The translations under genes were made by a program, and so were the position numbers. 46,483 bases of DNA. Source: Chiloscyllium plagiosum (taxonomy: Eukaryota). The DNA lies in the NCBI RefSeq assembly GCF_004010195.1, contig NC_057749.1:12739180-12785662 (forward strand), written 5' to 3'. The notes beneath the pieces are model-generated. The model saw only the letters and a list, made by a program, of their open reading frames with translations. It had not been told where the DNA came from and ran no database searches. This document shows, piece by piece, positions 5,205-44,254 of this stretch; the first letter of the stretch is position 1; each line of letters starts with the position of its first letter.

Positions 5205-7986
5205 TTATTTTTCTTTTATTACCCCCACACTACCACCTAACTGTGATAGTGCTTATATTTTCCCACTCACCCATGTTGTGTGTGTGCAGGAGTGAGACAC
5301 AGTGAAAGACGCAAAGTGTACAAATCTTTATTCAATTTCCACCACCAAGAAGAAAGGAAACACCCAAGTGGCCAGTAACAAGCAGTGCACTTCTCATCAA
5401 AGGGCAATGCTGTGTGGTCAAACAGTGATGGGGATGCCAGGGATTAAATCAAAATAGAATTGGAGGGGGAAATAATACACTCCACTCCCTTAGGTGCCCA
5501 CCTCTCCCTGAACTGCTCAAGGGTGGATACCACGTGCTCCCTCTCTGAAGACACCTGGGCTCTAACATAACTGCCGAAGGAGGGCAGGCAATCGGCACTA
5601 ATGACCCCCTCCACGGCCCGTTGCCTGGACCTGTTTATGGCCAGTTTGGCCAGGTCCAGGGGTAGACTCACGCGGAGGTCCTCTGACCTGCCCTCCCCCT
5701 CTGCACCGGGTGCATCCAGAAGCAGAGAAGGTTTTTAAGAAAATCAAAAAGGGAGTGCAAGAACCCACATCCAATATATATATGGCTAACAGACTCCACA
5801 GCACCACAGAACAAGCAGTTGGGCTGGGAGTCTGTGAACCACCGCAATCTGCATCCTGAACCCGATGCCTGCAGAGTCCCGAGCAGATATTCGTGACCGA
5901 CTGTGTCGAACGCCTTCTCCTGGTTGAGAGGCAGGGAGGCGCTTGGCAGACCAGCCCGTCAACAGAAATGGATCAGGTCCCGGACCAGGTGGACGTTATC
6001 ATATATCCTCTGGCCCGCGACCGTGTAGGATGGGTCTGGGTGAATCATGTGGGCCAGCACAGAAGCCAGGCGAGAAGACAACACCCTGGCAAAGATTTTG
6101 CAGTCCGTGCTGAGGAGGGAGTCCAGGCGGAGACTCCAATTCTTTTTCCCTTTTTTCCCATTACCCCCACACTACTGCCTAACTGCGGTAGTGCCTTTTT
6201 AACCCCGCACCATGTTGTGTGTGTGCAGGTGTGGGACACAGTGAAAGACGCAAGGTGCATAAATCTTTATTCAGTTTCCACCACCAGGAAGAAAGGAAAC
6301 ACCCGAGTGGCCAGTGACAAGCAGTGCCCTTCTCATCAAAGGGCAATGCTGCGAGATCAAACAGTGAACAGGGGTTAAATCAAAATAGAATTGGACGGGA
6401 AAATAATGCACTCCATTCCCTGCGGCGCCCATCTCTCCCTGAACTACTCCAGGGTGTTGGTGGACACTGCGTGCTCCTTTTCCAGAGGCACCCGGGCTCT
6501 AACGTAACCGCGGAAGAAGGGCAGGCAGTCGGCCCTATTGACCCCCTCCATGGCCCGCTGCCTGGACCTGTTTATGGCCAGTTTGGCCAGGCCCAGGAGC
6601 AGAGAGACTCCTATTCTTTTTTTTTCTTGGGCAATGCTGTGTGATCACACTCCCCTTTTTTTTTAAACCCCCACACTACCACCTAACTGCGGTAGTGCTT
6701 ATTTTTTCCCCAAGGCTCCTGTTTATTTTTTTCTCTCCTTTCTTTATTTAACCCCCACACTACCGCCTAACCGCAGTAGTGCTTATTTTTTTTCCCAGCA
6801 CCCATGGTGTGTGTGTGCAGGTGTGAGACACAGCGAAAGACACAAAGTGCACGAATCTTTATTGAATTTCCACCACCAGGAAGATAGGAAAACACCCGGG
6901 TGGCCAGTGACAAACACTGCCCTTCACATCAAAGGGCAGTGCTGTGTGATCAAAACAGTGAGGGGGGAGGGTAGGGACTAAATCAAAATAGAGTAGGAGG
7001 GAGAAATGATGCACTCCACTCCCTGCGGCACCCACCTCTCCCTGAACAACTCCAGGGTGTTGGTCGACACCGCGTGCTCCTTCTCCAAGGACACCCGGGC
7101 TCTAACGTAACCGCGGAAGAGGGGCAGGCAGTCGGCCCTAATGACCCCCTCCACGGCCCGCTGCCTGGACCTGTTTATGGCCAGTTTAGCCAGACTCCTA
7201 TTCTTTTTTTTCTTCTTGCTTTTTATTTATTTATTTTTTTCTTTTTTTAAATTTTAACCCCACACTACCACCTAAGTGCGGTAGTGCTTATTTTTTTCCC
7301 CCAGCACCCATGGTGTGTGTGTGCAGGGGTGAGACACACCCTCACAATAGGCAAACACCCGGGTGGCCAGTGACAAACACTGCCCTTCACATGAAAGGGC
7401 AGTGCTGTATGATCAAAACAGTGAAGGGGAGGGGAGGGACTAAATCAGAATAGAGTTGGAGGGAGCAGACTCCTATTCTTTTTTTTCTCATTTTTTTCTT
7501 TTTTACATGGTCCACGGACTCCACAGCGCCACAAAACAAGCAGTTGGGCTGGGAGTCCATGAACCACCGCAACACTCCTGTTTATTTTTTCTTTTTTTTT
7601 CAGCACCCATGGTGTGTGTGTGCAGGTGTGAGACACAGTGAAAGACACAAAGTGCACCAATCTTTATTCAAATTCCACCACCAGGAAGATAGGAAAACAC
7701 CCGGGTGGAAGACTCCTATTCTTTTTTTTTTGCGTGTTAAAGTAGAATTGAACCCCAGTCCCTGGTGCTGTGAGGTAGCATTGCTAACTACTGACCCACT
7801 GTGCCATCCCGACATGGTGGTTTTTTTTTTCTTTTAAAACCCCCACACTACCACCTAAGTGCGGTAGTGCTTATTTTTTTTCCCCAGCACCCATGGTGTG
7901 TATGTGAATCTCCTGTTTATTTATTTATTTATTTATTTTTTCCTTTTTTTCTTCTTTTTTATCCCCAGCACCCATGGTGTGTGTGA
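5205..7986 (-). mobile_element. Tandem array of about 11 5'-truncated Tx1-clade (L1 group) non-LTR pieces inside the Gypsy LTR
   Basis: RT motifs on the minus strand at 5880-6120 (LLSTDCKIFARVLSSRL..IHPD..QEKAFD), zinc-knuckle CLFCGAVESVDHV, C-terminus FRERWAPKGVECIISPSNSILI*, repeated 3' UTR and poly(A) tails, and a recurring junction AGACTCCTATTC. Confidence 0.88.
7745..7810 (-). mobile_element. Isolated tRNA-derived head of HE1-type SINE with poly(A), within the Tx1 array
   Basis: Minus strand gggatggcacagtgggtcagtagttagcaatgctacctcacagcaccagggactggggttcaattc has A and B boxes and matches the SINE head at 19749. Confidence 0.8.
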
Positions 7987-9454
7987 AGACTCCTATTCTT
8001 ATCTGTCAGCTGGGGCTCCCTGATTGGGCCAGATTAACAGCCCCATTCAGGGACCTCCTATTCTATCAGGTCCACCTGACTAGACTCAGAGTGGGAGAGA
8101 TGTAAGTAGTGACTGAAACGAGATCAAAGACGTAGGCCGTTTTTGGTTGTTGCAGCTCCTTCTGTTGCATTTTTGTACCAGGTCAGGTCCCTTCAACTCT
8201 ACCTCTGATATGGGCAGCATTTAGTGCACAGTAACTCCCCTCTTGTGCCCAGAGCTTCTCGGAACACATTCAGTTTCCTCTTCAGGCAGAGATAGCAACA
8301 TCTACCATGTCCATCTTAGGTTCCATGGTAATTTCAAGGCTTGATGAAGAGAGAAAATCCAAGGGTTCCGGAACAGTGTGAGTTTGCAGCGTTCATATGA
8401 TCCACGTTTTGTTCAGGACTGTCTCAGCTAATTGAACTGTATACATCACTGGACCTGACCTCAAGTTGGCCATGCCCCTTACTTACCCATGCAGGGTCAT
8501 TTCCATAGTTTCTACACCAAACCTCAGCCCCTGAAGTAAAGTGTCTCTCTTGCTTAGCGGAGTCATGTGTATGGCATCAGTGTTCCTGATGCTGTTTCAC
8601 CTCCCCCCCACCCCCACCCCCCACCACACGTTAGGGAAGATCAGATTTAACCTTGTGCGAAGTCTTCTTCCCCTTATCAACTCTGCTGGAACTATCTGTG
8701 TCGGTGTATGAGTGGTGGTTCTACAATCAAATAGGCATCAGGACAAAAACAGAAATTATTGGAAAAGCTCAGAACATTTGGCAGCATTTATGGAGAGAAA
8801 TCAGTTAATTTTTAGGTCGAGTGACCCTTCCTCATAAGCCAGTTGTTTTGGTTTTTATATAGGAACTGGGCCAGTATGGTATCTAATGAAATTGTAGGCT
8901 TTTTTATAAGCCTTCAAAGTTTGCACTAATCTTTCTGCCATGTCATTGGATGATGGATGGTATGGTGCTGTTCTGAAATATCATTCAACTTTAGGATATA
9001 CAGAAATTCCCTGCTGGTAAACAGTCACCCATTATCTGTGGCCAACACTTCTGGGAGTGTTGAAAAAGATGTATGCAGTTTTTCTATCATCGTCCCCATG
9101 TTTGACAAATGAACGCCAGCATGACTATGCACGTCCAGCCACCTTGAGTGGGCATCCACAATGACTGAGAACATTGAGTGCATGGAAGGACCAGCATAGT
9201 CAAATGTGTAATGGAGTCTAGGGTTTACCCAGCCATGAATGTGGGGGAGCTGTTGGCAGTAATTTTTGTCCTTGTTGACACTCTGTGCACTGCTCCACCA
9301 GCATAGCCATGTCTACATACAATCCTGACTACCAGACATAACATATTGCCAAGTTATTCATTTTGGAAACATCTGAATGACCCTGATAGAGTTCAGTCCG
9401 TATCTGGCAGTGACCTTTGCTTGGTACAATCATTCTTGCTTCCCAAAATATCAG

Positions 9455-9790
9455 AGAGAATCCCTATAGTGTGGAAGTAGGCCAATCCACCCACCGAGTC
9501 CCTCTGACCCTCTGAAGAGCATCCAAACCAGACTCACCCCCTCTAAACCTGTAACTGTTCATTTCCCATGGTTAATCCACCTAACCTACATATCCTTGTA
9601 CAAAATGGGCAATTTAGCATGGACAATCCACCTAAACACATCTTTAGACTGTGGGAGAAAACCAGACCAACTGGAGGAAACCTATGCAGACACATGCAGA
9701 ATGTGCAAACTCCACAGAGACAGTCAACCAAAGGTGGAATCAAGCCTAGGTCCCTGGAACTATGAGCCATCACGTCATTCCTGCTGTCCT
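9455..9790 (-). mobile_element. HE1-type tRNA-derived SINE
   Basis: gggcaatttagcatgg...agaatgtgcaaactccacagagacagtc core shared with the other copies. Confidence 0.85.
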
Positions 9791-10058
9791 TACTGTGATC
9801 TGGTCTCTCCAAGTCTGAAAAGGGTTCATTTCTGGTTGGGGCGTTCCTTTGGTTTCCCCATCACCACCAGCTGTTTTAGTTTTGTCAGGAACAGATCTTT
9901 CTGCATCCAAAGTCTGATATTGTCAGCTGTGACTGTAAGTGGTCCAGAAAATTTATAACTATTTCGGACTCTTCCAGTGGTTATAATACTGCTGGTGTTT
10001 CTGCAGGCAGGAGGCAGCTCAATGCATCGTATTTGCTACTTGGCCTCCCAGACAGTGT

Positions 10059-10304
10059 GGAGAAAGTGAGGACTGCAGATGCTGGAGATCAGAGCTGAAA
10101 ATGTGTTGCTAGAAAAGCACAGCAGGTCAGGCAGCATCCAAGGAGCAGAAGAATCGATGTTTCGGGCATGAACCCTTCTTCAGCAGAGAAGCTTTTGAAG
10201 AAGCTCTCTTCCTCCCTGAAGAAGGGCTCATGCCCGAAACGTCGATTCTCCTGCTCCTTGGATGTTGCCGGACCTGCTGTGTTTTTTCAGCAACACATTT
10301 TCAG
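10059..10304. mobile_element. Palindromic Penelope-derived element with hammerhead cores
   Basis: 14-bp TSD ctcccagacagtgt (10045-10058, 10305-10318). Inverted arms. CTGAAGAAGGGCTCATGCCCGAAACGTC. Confidence 0.85.
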
Positions 10305-11322
10305 CTCCCAGACAGTGTTCCAACTTGTAATTATATGTATTAGTATTACAGCCCACCAGTGAATTTGGACCGAAGCTATGGAAGGCACTGTCTTGTCCTC
10401 TTTAAATAGACCGAGTAGGAGGTTGTGGTCCGTTATTATTAAAAAATTTATATCTGTAAAAGTTATTGGTGGAATTTCCTGCCTCCAAATATGAGTGACA
10501 AATCATCCTTCTCTTTCTGGGTGTGTTTACACTCTGCATTAGCTGAAGTCCTGGGTGTATGTGCTATTCCGCATTCATCTCCACAAAGATGAACTGACCC
10601 ATCGGGTTTCACAATCAGTACAACTGGTGCTGCCCATTCCACAAACTGGGCTGGTTTGATGATTCCTTAGCTTTCCAGCCTTCTGATTTCTACCTCAACT
10701 TTTGCCCTTGAGGCAAACAGCACTTGGCAGGCCTTGCAAAGTCAAAGAATTGCTTCCTGGTCAATATGCAAGGTGGCCTTGGCTCATTCAATAGTCCCTA
10801 GACCTTCTTGAAAATCTTCCAGGTATTTAATTAGAACTTCACTCAAGCAGCCATATTCTAATTTAAAATATTGAGCTAGTCTAAGTGAATCTTTCTCAGC
10901 CATTTTTGCCCCATCAAGCTTCTTACTACACTCAGTGGTAACTGAACCAACTGCTTCTCATAAGAGACTGATACTGAAGATGTACCCTTAATCTATAAAG
11001 GTTCCCAGGTGTAGGTTGTCAGTCTAGCCAAGGTCTTGCACAAAATTAAGAGTTGGAGTCCAGAGCAAATTTTGTTACAGACTGATTCTGCAAACACTGA
11101 AACTATTGCGCTGGCATCGACCTCTATTTGAACCAGGTGACCATTTAGCCAGATCTTGGTCCTGAATTGGATGTTGCTAAGCAATTTAACTGTTCCAAAC
11201 CAGATGCAGGTGGACTTTCCAGAATGTGCCCTCTCCTTGATACTGACCTATGAGTTCTCTTACTCAGTTTAGGTCGAGTGGGACTCTTCTGCTGTCTTGA
11301 GTCGACCCAACAGCAGCAATTA

Positions 11323-11409
11323 GGTAAAAACAATGACTGCAGATGCTGGAAACCAGAGTCTAGATTAGAGTGGTGCTGGAAAAGCACAGCAGTTCAGGCA
11401 GCATCCAAG
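11323..11409. mobile_element. Short terminal fragment of Penelope-derived element
   Basis: 12-bp TSD cagcagcaatta (11311-11322, 11410-11421). Sequence ctgcagatgctgga...gctggaaaagcacagcag. Confidence 0.8.
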
Positions 11410-12282
11410 CAGCAGCAATTACAATGGCTTGCCAGCCTGGATCCTGAAGACACCATTAATCATTTGGCTGAGGCTTGGCTTTGTTTTGGGGTTTTGCTGT
11501 GGGCTGACCGAGTCCCTTTGTTCAAGATATGTTCTGAGTGAGGCTGTGCAATTTCCTTCACGCAGCTGGTGTTCCCCAAGCTCCATTGGACCTGCGAGGG
11601 TGTCCACTTCCATCGAAATACACTGCAACTCATATGGCCCACTTGCCGCATTTTCCCAATGATAAAACCAGTTGTAGTGCTTGCTTGAAGTCCAGTTGGT
11701 CTTCGGCTAGTGGGCACTTTTGCATGCTTACCTCATTAATCCCACATACCAAACAGTTTCTCAGCATCTCACTAAGGGTTAAACCAAAGTCACATGCCTC
11801 TGCCAGTCATCATAACCTAGTCAAAAGTCTGATATAGATTCCCCTGGTTCTCAAATTGCCGAGTAAAACTGATAGCATTTCAGAATTAGAAGAGGCTTCG
11901 GATCCTAATACTCCTGAACTAAATCCATCAACATTTGAAAAGTTTTAATATCTTGTGCCTCAGAGAAAGTTAGGCTCCTAATAACCAAAAAAGCTGTGAG
12001 GAGAATTACTTGTTGCTTTTCATCTACCCCAATGTTATTTGCCTCGAATAATATAACACATCCTTTCCACATACTGGGCCCAGTCTTCAACAGCTGGATT
12101 GAAAACATCAAGCTTCCCAAACAATGACATGATGCCAGAAGTGCTTACCCCAACTCAAAGGCAACTGTTACAAGCAAATTTCCAGCTCTGAGAGAGAGAA
12201 CAGGATGTCTGTCACTGTTGTTCCTGTCTATCAGCCAGGGCTCCCTAAGTGGACCAGATTAACAGCCCCAGTCAGGGAACTC

Positions 12283-12650
12283 ATAGAGTCATAGAGATGT
12301 ACTGCACAGAAACAGACCCTTCGGTCCAACTTGTCCATTCTGACCAGATATTCCAACCCAATCTATTCCCTCCTGCCAGCACCTGGCCCATATCCCTCCA
12401 AATCCTTCCTATTCAGATAAACATCCAGATGCCTTTTAAATGTTGTAATTGTACCAGCCTCCACCACTTCCTATGGCAGCTCAATCCATACACGTACCAC
12501 ACTCTGAATGAAAGAGTTGCCTCTTTTATATCTTTCCCCTCTCACCTTAAACCTATGCCCTCTAGTTCTGGACTCCCTCACCCCAGGGAAAAGACTTTGT
12601 CTATTTATCCTATCTATGCCCCTCATAATTTTATAAACCTCTATAAGGTC
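12283..12650 (-). mobile_element. CR1/HER1-type LINE 3' end inserted in the Gypsy 5' LTR
   Basis: Tail catagagtcatagag. Reverse complement of 39530-39910. Confidence 0.9.
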
Positions 12651-12691
12651 ATATTCTAGTTAACCTAGGTAACCTTGTTACAATCACGACA

Positions 12692-12840
12692 AGCTCCCTG
12701 ACAGCATTGTGAGTCTATCTATAGCAAATAAATGGCAGCAGCTCAAGAAGATAGCTCAGTACCAATTTCTCAGAGCTATCTAGGGATAGGCAATAAATGT
12801 TGGTCCAGCCAATGGTGCCCACATCCTATGAATGAATATT
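12692..12840 (+). mobile_element. 3' end of CR1/L2-group LINE, right part
   Basis: cctgacagcattgtg...gggataggcaataaatg...gaatgaat, continuing 4870-5078. Confidence 0.8.
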
Positions 12841-42340: not shown

Positions 42341-43629
42341 AGTTCCATAGGTTTGTAAACTGTGATGGAAACTATCAGGAAAAGGAAGGAATCCAGTACT
42401 GACCTCTCAGGGACTCCACTACATACCTGTTAGAATTATGAAAAAAATCCATTTACCCTATTACTCAGTTTCCTCTCACTCAGCCAATTCTGTATTCAGG
42501 TTGCTCCTGTCCTTTTATTTCATCTACTATAATTTTGCTTGCAAATCTGTCATGAGACACTATTAAATGTCTTTTGGAAGTCCATGTACAAGATAGCATG
42601 TCCTCATTAACCCTCTTGGTTAATCTTCAGAAAACTCCAGCAAGTTAGTTCGACATGTTTTTCGTTTAATGTAACAATGCTGGCCTCCCATAGTTAATCT
42701 CCATTTGTCCACATGACTATTAATTTTGTCTTGAATTATTGTTTTTACTTGAATGCACGAATATTAACTTCAAAGAAGGAAAGAGCACACATTAAGCCAG
42801 ATGAGTAACTAACAAACTGATTAAAGAAAATCCTAATCATTGGTTTTGAATGGGAAAGATCAATTCCTATTCTATAATCATAGACTTTTTCTAAATGTGT
42901 GGAAGTCGTAAGACGTACCTCTGCGGCCGTCATATCCTGAGGTTGGAGTTGAACTCAGACCTTCTGACCAAGAATTAGGGACACTATCATTGTAACTCAA
43001 GACCCTCACCAGCTATCTCTGAAGATTGTCCAACAACAAAATTTGCTGATTATTTTTTCTTATATTTTCTAAATTCACCTCCATTTTTGATTAAGTAACT
43101 TAAGTTCTGCATGATATCTAAAATCTAGTAATCCTAGTTTTATATTTACTGGTGGTCCATTTTATATTGAAAATCAGAAGTGAGGCTTTTATTATCAATA
43201 TAGAAAGTCTCTTCACCACACACACACCAAGGATGTTTCAAAGTGGATGATTTACAAACAGGATGTAATGTCCACTTGCTTTGTTTTTCTGAAGTCTTGT
43301 AATCTAATTTGAGTCAGTAACTCTCTAACCAACAGATGGATTTAAAAGGCAATTTTATTATTCTTGGAACAGAAGAGAGTGGTGCATTTCTTCATTCAGA
43401 AATATGAGGTTGGGGGAGCATTCCCATGGGTGAATGACAAACTAACTTCCCACGTTCAGGATTAAGTAGGCAGCCATTAAGGGAATGATGATAATGATTG
43501 AGGACTACATTAGAACTCCACAGAGGCTGGTCTCCTGTCAATAAGTCACCTTTTATTTACATATGATAGTACTTGATACTGGTCTGGCTTCCTCAGAGCC
43601 AGCTCTCAGAATAAGCAGAACCTCTGACT

Positions 43630-43642
43630 CTCCTGTTTATAT
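43630..43642 (-). promoter_or_regulatory. TATA box of Gypsy LTR (ATATAAACAGGAG); AATAAA about 80 nt downstream
   Basis: Minus-strand TATAAA followed by AATAAA near 43552-43557, the usual LTR order. Confidence 0.6.
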
Positions 43643-44254
43643 CCGTCAGCTAGGGTTCCCTGACTGGACCAGGTTAACAGCCCCAATCAGGGAACTTATA
43701 TGCTATGAGGTCCACCAGGCTGACCTTGTTTCAATCACCAGATCCCTCCCCCAACAAGTCTAGGGACGTGGGCCTATTCTTTTTCTTGTAGCATCTCCTG
43801 GGTATTTTTGCACTGGATCTGGTCCCTCCAAATAAGCCTTGGATGTGGGCAATGTGTACTGGACTGTAGCCTGCCTGTTGTACCTGGAGCATCTCGGAAG
43901 AAATTCATCCTCTTCTTCAGGTGGTAAAGGCATCAAGGCTGCAATATCCACTGTGTTTATCTCAGACTCAAGCTTCTTCGACACTCGGAGGGGGCGAACT
44001 CACGGGTTCTGACAGCCTTTCCAGCTGTTCCGAGGGGCCGGGTACATTTTGCTCCTCCCCAATTTGAGAGTTGTGGTGCACGTACTTATTCAGGACCGCC
44101 TCACCTACCAGAACTTTGTACATCATGGGACCTGACCACATGTCGACCATGCAGGGCCATTTCCATGGTTTCAGCATCAATCTCTAACTCACTTAGAGGG
44201 GTCTTGTGTCAGCATTGGTGTTCCCATTGCCGTCTCAGCTGTCCCCCCAGCCAT

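What the first reader, a model, noticed from the sequence alone, without database searches (positions are those of the whole stretch)
43600..43660. The targeted site is the LTR's TATA box and insertions are co-oriented with the LTR promoter
Seen: in the empty LTR the site reads ATATAAACAGGAG on the element strand, upstream of AATAAA and flanked by a short inverted pair ctgac/gtcag. All Tx1 pieces in the other LTR lie in the same orientation immediately downstream of the homologous position. Inference: even 5'-truncated copies would land under a ready Pol II promoter while disabling the host LTR, a form of promoter parasitism between retroelements. This would also explain the composite transcripts.
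Basis: inference. Interest (0 to 1): 0.7.

Follow-up and report, generated by a model that had tools for sequence, protein, structure and literature searches.

The report
LINE that cuts an LTR's TATA
In a shark-like genome, one jumping gene keeps landing inside what looks like the TATA box of another, very common repeat; the aim is real and of a known kind, but its fixed direction follows from how the enzyme cuts, and nothing here shows that it borrows the promoter.

Summary
The motifs are as described. The site is probably the promoter TATA of a short, high-copy Gypsy LTR: CCAAT boxes, TATA at -31/-29, an initiator and AATAAA fall in register, at no other of 509 TATA-like positions in the window. 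A Tx1-type LINE hit the homologous site of another copy six times; all 10 pieces are co-oriented, none clearly lies elsewhere, and a second organism's contig shows an insertion at the same site.

Promoter parasitism is not shown. Co-orientation is forced: the nick is on the T-rich strand that primes on poly(A). The occupied LTR has a damaged TATA (6/8), and the intact copy is empty. Three of six events are composites carrying target copies from other LTRs, which ordinary 3' read-through explains. RNA from one sample appears to follow the element strand but shows no start near +1. Most targets look like solo LTRs, so little is disabled.

Best reading: sequence-specific safe-haven targeting (0.6); promoter capture 0.25. 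Tx1 families preferring LTR retrotransposons, and transcription from the target, are already in print (PMC4494074). The scan noted this targeting before at about six other places in this genome.

The parts
43508..43742 (-). LTR-E: empty 3' LTR (about 235 bp) of a decayed Gypsy-type element; member of a high-copy family
   Evidence: Depth confined to 43512-43751, loose ends at 43514 and 43738, 9700 and 9116 contigs laid; RT-RNaseH frame to its right
43743..43752 (-). Polypurine-tract-like run just upstream of LTR-E; sets the element strand
   Evidence: GGGGGAGGG at 43752-43744; coding frames on the same strand
43683..43690 (-). Distal CCAAT box, reverse orientation (CTGATTGG), intact
   Evidence: motif identity recalled
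43660..43667 (-). Proximal CCAAT box: one mismatch in this copy, CCAAT in most family copies and in LTR-A
   Evidence: 43664 C>T in 73348 of 85711 depth in X1
43636..43643 (-). TATA box GATATAAA (7/8 to TATAWAWR), -31 to -24 from the predicted start; the LINE nick falls inside it, about 43640/43641
   Evidence: junction sequences
43627..43640 (-). Empty target site: the 13-14 bp duplicated on insertion
   Evidence: Same sequence type between array pieces; 13-nt duplication 43630-43642 around a 39-nt insert in an organism B contig (table 5c)
43608..43614 (-). Initiator-like YYANWYY, predicted +1 at 43612; also at the homologous place of LTR-A (5182)
   Evidence: predicted, not mapped
43552..43557 (-). 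AATAAA poly(A) signal
43624..43649 (.). Short inverted pair CTGAC/GTCAG around the TATA and target; probably incidental
   Evidence: chance rate 2-9%
7987..8080 (-). LTR-A upstream half (U3, one intact CCAAT, damaged TATA GATAAGAA, first target copy)
   Evidence: 74 of 92 columns identical to LTR-E
5209..7986 (-). Array of 10 A-tailed, 5'-truncated Tx1-type LINE pieces plus one SINE fragment; 6 insertion events, 3 of them composites with target copies of another LTR type (7920, 7585, 6726, partial 6655)
   Evidence: RT match PF00078 E 4.7e-6, below the gathering score
5079..5208 (-). LTR-A downstream half (last target copy, initiator, R/U5; AATAAA position reads AACAAA)
   Evidence: 88 of 117 columns identical to LTR-E
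8130..12130 (-). Decayed Gypsy-type gag-pol region, many stops and frameshifts
   Evidence: three-frame translation; family label recalled
12182..12692 (-). LTR-B: probable 5' LTR, no TATA (at most 5/8), no LINE insert at the site, R/U5 missing, split by another repeat at about 12284-12649

Best explanation
A Tx1-type LINE has a sequence-specific endonuclease that reads about 20 bp of this LTR family. It nicks the pyrimidine-rich strand at a T/A step that lies inside the LTR's TATA box, and the freed T-rich end primes reverse transcription on the RNA's poly(A), so every insert faces the same way as the LTR. A 13-14 bp duplication leaves an intact TATA upstream and rebuilds most of the site downstream. 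New copies seem to enter mostly at the promoter-side site, the only one that keeps the bases 3' of the nick. Transcripts from such arrays often run on through neighbours, so composites travel with their target copies. The main gain is a harmless landing pad present in thousands of mostly solo copies. Shown: site, duplication, orientation, imported target copies, promoter-like motif order. Inferred: enzyme specificity, order of growth, read-through, safe-haven value.
For: Specificity: 10 of 10 LINE pieces sit at one site, while the window holds 212 TTTTA sites on both strands. Near-copies of the site are unused: a 13-mer 60 bp upstream in LTR-A and ATAAACAGG inside three LINE pieces. The nick maps to the same T/A step in both site variants. 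The pieces have different 5' ends and differ by up to about 20%, so they are not tandem duplications. The two most downstream pieces are the most distant from the rest, and the last has 6 CpG against 15 and 15 over 420 columns. Inner target copies are of the TATA type (one of three, plus the partial copy, ends GGAGTGT, the family's majority form at 43629: A in 35309 of 40097 depth), while both outer copies end GGAGTCT, so the inner ones came from other loci. One organism B contig has an independent T-tailed insert at the site. A sturgeon relative, 61% identical over the RT piece, has an endonuclease loop two residues longer than L1's and scores 77 bits against the L1/Tx1L-loop chimera versus 55 against L1-EN. 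Tx1L-EN is sequence-specific (PMC1950540, passages).
Against: No genome is held, so the share of this LINE's copies that sit in the LTR is unknown. One piece runs straight into a SINE fragment with no target copy, which hints at off-target copies. No loose-end pile at the site is among the 12 DNA rows shown (718 rows hidden), so occupancy may be low. The element's own endonuclease is not in the window. That the site coincides with the one TATA of the LTR is explained only as T/A chemistry plus chance. The last target copy (5208) starts ATAAA like the TATA type, so LTR-A may have had a good TATA at its first insertion.
Confidence: 0.6

Rival explanations
1. Promoter parasitism. The site was selected because cutting inside the TATA leaves CCAAT-CCAAT-TATA intact upstream, so Pol II starts about 15 nt inside the newest insert. 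Even truncated copies are then transcribed and moved in trans, giving the composites.
For: The promoter motif order is unique in the window: 2 of 509 TATA-like positions, both this site. The upstream copy keeps the full TATA while the initiator is displaced. The newest pieces appear to sit next to the promoter. Donors of 3 of 6 events were LTR arrays with TATA-type sites. Transcription from the target is known for R2 and proposed for SINEU (PMC4494074 section 20).
Against: Orientation is forced by chemistry. LTR-A's damaged TATA took repeated hits while LTR-E is empty. RNA depth follows DNA depth (Spearman 0.87; R/U5 to U3 ratio 0.176 against 0.154) with no start pile, though this is one sample and a library poorly suited to 5' ends. 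A full-length element would lose about 15 nt of its 5' end each cycle (inference). Read-through from a full-length head copy explains the composites equally well.
Confidence: 0.25
2. Protein- or chromatin-guided targeting: a loosely specific endonuclease is drawn to the TBP-bent or nucleosome-free LTR promoter, so position matters more than sequence.
For: Two site variants differing at 3 of 11 bases are both used, and a near-identical 13-mer 60 bp upstream is not.
Against: A 6/8 TATA is used repeatedly. No LINE piece lies at any other TATA-like position of the window. The decoy also differs in sequence on both sides.
Confidence: 0.1
3. Generic hot spot: an abundant, L1-like LINE without a dedicated target; arrays grow because A-tails recreate T-rich sites, and composites come from template jumps.
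For: L1-like T/A nick; a SINE fragment and short internal pieces are captured; no visible pile of junctions.
Against: Target copies from other LTRs inside composites, the same site used in a second organism, and no clear piece elsewhere in about 43 kb.
Confidence: 0.05

Closest known systems
Tx1-8_Crp and Tx1-4_AMi (crocodilian Tx1-Mar group; Kojima 2015, PMC4494074)
   Same: Tx1-clade LINEs that prefer specific groups of LTR retrotransposons
   Different: The sections I read do not give the position in the target. Supplementary figures S3 and S4 could not be read, so a TATA position may or may not be recorded there.
Tx1L of Xenopus laevis in Tx1D
   Same: Sequence-specific APE endonuclease aimed at one site of another transposon (PMC1950540 passages; PMC4494074)
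   Different: The target there is a DNA transposon; here it is an LTR core promoter, with stacked arrays and transduced target copies.
R2 in 28S rDNA; SINEU and Tx1-Mar in Mariner-N4_AMi
   Same: Transcription from the target sequence is shown (R2) or proposed (SINEU)
   Different: Those are co-transcribed from upstream. Here a start would fall inside the insert, and none was observed.
Human L1 3' transduction
   Same: Read-through past the tail carries flanking DNA to new sites (recalled); nick at a T/A step (TTTT/AA)
   Different: L1 is dispersed; here the flank is a neighbour in the array.

Membership tests
Tx1 clade non-LTR retrotransposon | L1-group reverse transcriptase | tested here: met
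   PF00078 E 4.7e-6, 26.9 bits, below the gathering score of 29.6; 52-71% identical to four RT proteins; a relative's best solved match is L1 ORF2p
Tx1 clade non-LTR retrotransposon | Groups with named Tx1 elements in an RT tree | not testable with these tools
   No named Tx1 reference was returned; the label rests on vertebrate relatives, the endonuclease loop of one relative, and recall
Tx1 clade non-LTR retrotransposon | APE endonuclease with a Tx1L-type hairpin loop | tested here: inconclusive
   Seen only in the sturgeon relative P0008; the window's pieces lack the domain
Tx1 clade non-LTR retrotransposon | Poly(A) tail, 5' truncation, target-site duplication | tested here: met
   10 of 10 segments end in an A-rich tail; duplication 13-14 bp
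Target-specific LINE (criterion of PMC4494074) | More than 20% of flanks in one repeat type | tested here: inconclusive
   10 of 10 pieces in this window and one contig of organism B; no genome-wide count
Pol II TATA core promoter | TATA 29-32 nt before an initiator, upstream activator motifs | tested here: met
   -31/-29 to an initiator at 43612, with CCAAT upstream; spacing window from the PMC1779604 abstract, a mouse study
Pol II TATA core promoter | Mapped transcription start | tested here: inconclusive
   187 RNA reads, no start pile; the second RNA run laid 0 reads
Promoter-dependent insert (R2-like or Keno-like) | Element lacks its own promoter and is transcribed from the target | not testable with these tools
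   No full-length copy or 5' end is available
Gypsy LTR retrotransposon | LTRs, polypurine tract, RT-RNaseH, gag-pol order | tested here: met
   PF17917 E 1.3e-9; no phylogeny run

The most novel reading that the evidence does not exclude
A shark LINE lineage is aimed at the middle of an LTR TATA box so that one staggered cut keeps a working promoter upstream of the newest insert and, with the poly(A) tail, builds an AATAAA downstream (3 of 3 imported TATA-type junctions contain AATAAA, against 1 of 7 LTR-A-type copies, the ambiguous last one). Thousands of solo LTRs would then act as ready-made expression cassettes, and the arrays would spread as promoter-less passenger RNAs.
Probability: 0.2. 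Interest if true: 0.7.

Novelty: new member of a known kind. Interest (0 to 1): 0.36.

Why it matters
As it stands, it is a clean new example of one transposon using another as a landing pad, with a defined site of about 14 bp and arrays that record the order of insertion and read-through. If promoter capture were shown, it would be a case of a LINE aimed at a Pol II core promoter of another retroelement, which my searches did not find in print. It would also make testable how target-specific LINEs are transcribed and why they choose their targets.

Tried and rejected
No genome for this window. Pattern scans for the LINE tail or the LTR found nothing in metagenome, viral or prokaryote genome contigs. 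No RNA holder listed by index; RNA run X22 laid 0 reads, which is no test. The ESM Atlas gave only generic RT/endonuclease clusters. Earlier-finding look-ups by relatives, by sequence and one by words were blank. Tandem duplication as the origin of the array is rejected: 5' ends differ and pieces diverge up to about 20%. The inverted pair as a targeting hairpin is not supported (chance 2-9%, degraded in the occupied LTR). A second TATA-like 8-mer in LTR-E at 43702 is private to this copy (43697 and 43702 differ in over 90% of depth). Five more 7/8 matches lie at 43557-43563 around the AATAAA and did not pass the three-feature test. Literature searches showed no paper on a Tx1 aimed at an LTR TATA box; two searches returned 0, and only titles and abstract starts were seen for the rest. 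PMC4640811 passages hold no mention of a promoter. Repbase reports and most subscription papers are not searched.

Full report
Setting. The window looks like shark DNA (repeat types recalled; earlier scan notes say the same). No genome is held. BLAST finds three copies of one short LTR, all on the minus strand: LTR-E (43742-43508, empty), LTR-A (split at 8000/5208) and LTR-B (partial). A purine run precedes LTR-E, and decayed gag-pol frames with an RT-RNaseH match lie on the same strand. Laying two DNA runs on 43400-43850 gave 9700 and 9116 contigs from two organisms. Depth is confined to the LTR and flanks disagree at both ends (agreement 0.40-0.45), so the family is high-copy and looks mostly solo.

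Observation. Every motif is at the stated place. BLAST finds 10 LINE pieces, all in the array and all on the element strand; one 21-nt hit outside (E 0.035) was treated as chance. The inverted pair occurs by chance at 2-9% of positions.

Is it the TATA? Probably (about 0.8). LTR-E reads CCAAT (reverse), CCAAT-like, GATATAAA (7/8), an initiator with +1 at 43612, then AATAAA. The 8-mer starts at -31 and the TATAAA at -29, inside the -32 to -29 window of PMC1779604 (abstract only, mouse). Of 509 positions with at least 7/8 TATA match, 48 have an initiator in range, 53 a CCAAT and 22 an AATAAA; 2 have all three and both are this site. The distance windows were chosen after seeing the site, so this is descriptive. 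No variant inside 43630-43643 is among the rows shown, though 175 rows are hidden, and most copies have CCAAT at 43664. RNA run X21 (187 reads, 2% of the run) has 3.65 times more depth with the first mate on the plus strand. That means element-strand RNA if the library follows the usual rule, which is not on record. But RNA depth tracks DNA depth (Spearman 0.87), peaks upstream of the TATA, shows no R-region excess (0.176 against 0.154) and no start or end pile. Two loose-end groups of 20 and 26 reads look like single loci. This supports the orientation, not promoter activity.

The array. Splitting at target-like motifs gives 11 copies and 10 A-tailed segments. Seven copies are of LTR-A's own type, bounding six events. 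Four inner copies differ: three ATAAACAGGAG and one partial. One of the three and the partial copy end GGAGTGT, which matches the family majority at 43629 (35309 of 40097 depth); both outer copies end GGAGTCT. The inner copies therefore came from other LTRs, inside three composite RNAs. Two composites end with poly(A) at an internal LINE position, about 65 and 21 nt after an imported site; the third ends after a SINE fragment. This is the pattern of 3' read-through. The two downstream pieces are 12-21% from the rest in most comparisons, while upstream pieces are mostly 0-12% apart, and the last is CpG-poor. That suggests growth at the promoter side, though subfamily differences could mimic it. 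In organism B one contig shows a 13-nt duplication of 43630-43642 around 39 letters that start T-rich; by eye they do not match the LINE's 3' end. Another shows the LTR's own downstream stretch, ending at 43592 with a T-run, repeated at the site (table 5c).

The LINE. The RT piece matches PF00078 below its gathering score and proteins from a eukaryote set, turtles and a sturgeon. The sturgeon protein has an APE endonuclease whose hairpin loop resembles Tx1L's more than L1's (Tx1L loop described in PMC1950540, passages). Clade membership by tree was not tested.

Mechanism. In both site variants the downstream copies break at the same step, CTCCTGTTTAT/ATC or CTCCTATTCTT/ATC on the plus strand, uncertain by about 2 nt because tails are A-rich. 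That is a T/A step in the TATA. Priming on poly(A) from that strand fixes the orientation (established mechanism), so co-orientation does not count for parasitism. Specificity exceeds L1's: 212 TTTTA sites, a near-identical 13-mer 60 bp upstream and three ATAAACAGG inside the LINE are unused. A good TATA is not needed: LTR-A reads 6/8 and was hit repeatedly, while LTR-E is empty, perhaps because it departs from the majority at 43629 and 43644. The last target copy starts ATAAA, so LTR-A may have had a good TATA at its first hit. After insertion the upstream copy keeps CCAAT and TATA but loses the initiator, so a start would fall about 15 nt inside the insert. That could yield passenger RNAs from truncated copies but would erode a full-length element (inference). 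Tail plus TATA-type site creates AATAAA at 3 of 3 imported junctions, a side effect that may be useful.

Against my reading. The share of LINE copies in the LTR is unknown. One piece abuts a SINE fragment without a target copy. No junction pile is among the 12 DNA loose-end rows shown, with 718 rows hidden. The RNA test is one sample of unknown tissue in a library unsuited to 5' ends, so it cannot exclude germ-line promoter activity.

Known context. PMC4494074 (passages, second part of Results, section 20; supplements unreadable) reports Tx1 families that prefer LTR retrotransposons and proposes transcription from the target, citing R2. My searches (listings only) found nothing on a TATA-centred site, but the unread supplements may bear on that. 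Earlier scan notes describe the same targeting at about six other places in this genome; these are unchecked leads, not support.

Verdict. The TATA identity is likely; promoter parasitism is unproven (0.25). New member of a known kind, interest 0.36.

Noticed in passing
window 8081-8127: About 46 bp spanning the start of LTR-A and its polypurine tract appear inverted relative to LTR-E (local score 54 against a maximum of 40 in 1000 shuffles).
   Followed up: partly
window 5209-6130: The longest LINE piece joins RT motifs directly to the C-terminal zinc-knuckle region, i.e. an internal deletion.
   Followed up: no
window 5215-5258, 6746-6790, 7250-7295: The LINE ends in a conserved 10-bp stem with a 6-nt loop just before the tail (-13.6 to -16.3 kcal/mol), possibly its recognition signal.
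   Followed up: partly
window 7724-7822: A SINE 5' fragment (76-82% identical to four other copies in the window) with short unique flanks and a poly(A) tail sits inside a composite unit, with no target copy before it.
   Followed up: partly
window 12284-12649: LTR-B is split by another repeat (CR1-like, label recalled) at a different site in U3; the LTR resumes at about 12650.
   Followed up: no
   Followed up: no
window 43592-43642 (run X11): A contig repeats the LTR's own stretch downstream of the TATA, with a T-run, at the target site: possibly an LTR-derived or read-through RNA reinserted there.
   Followed up: no
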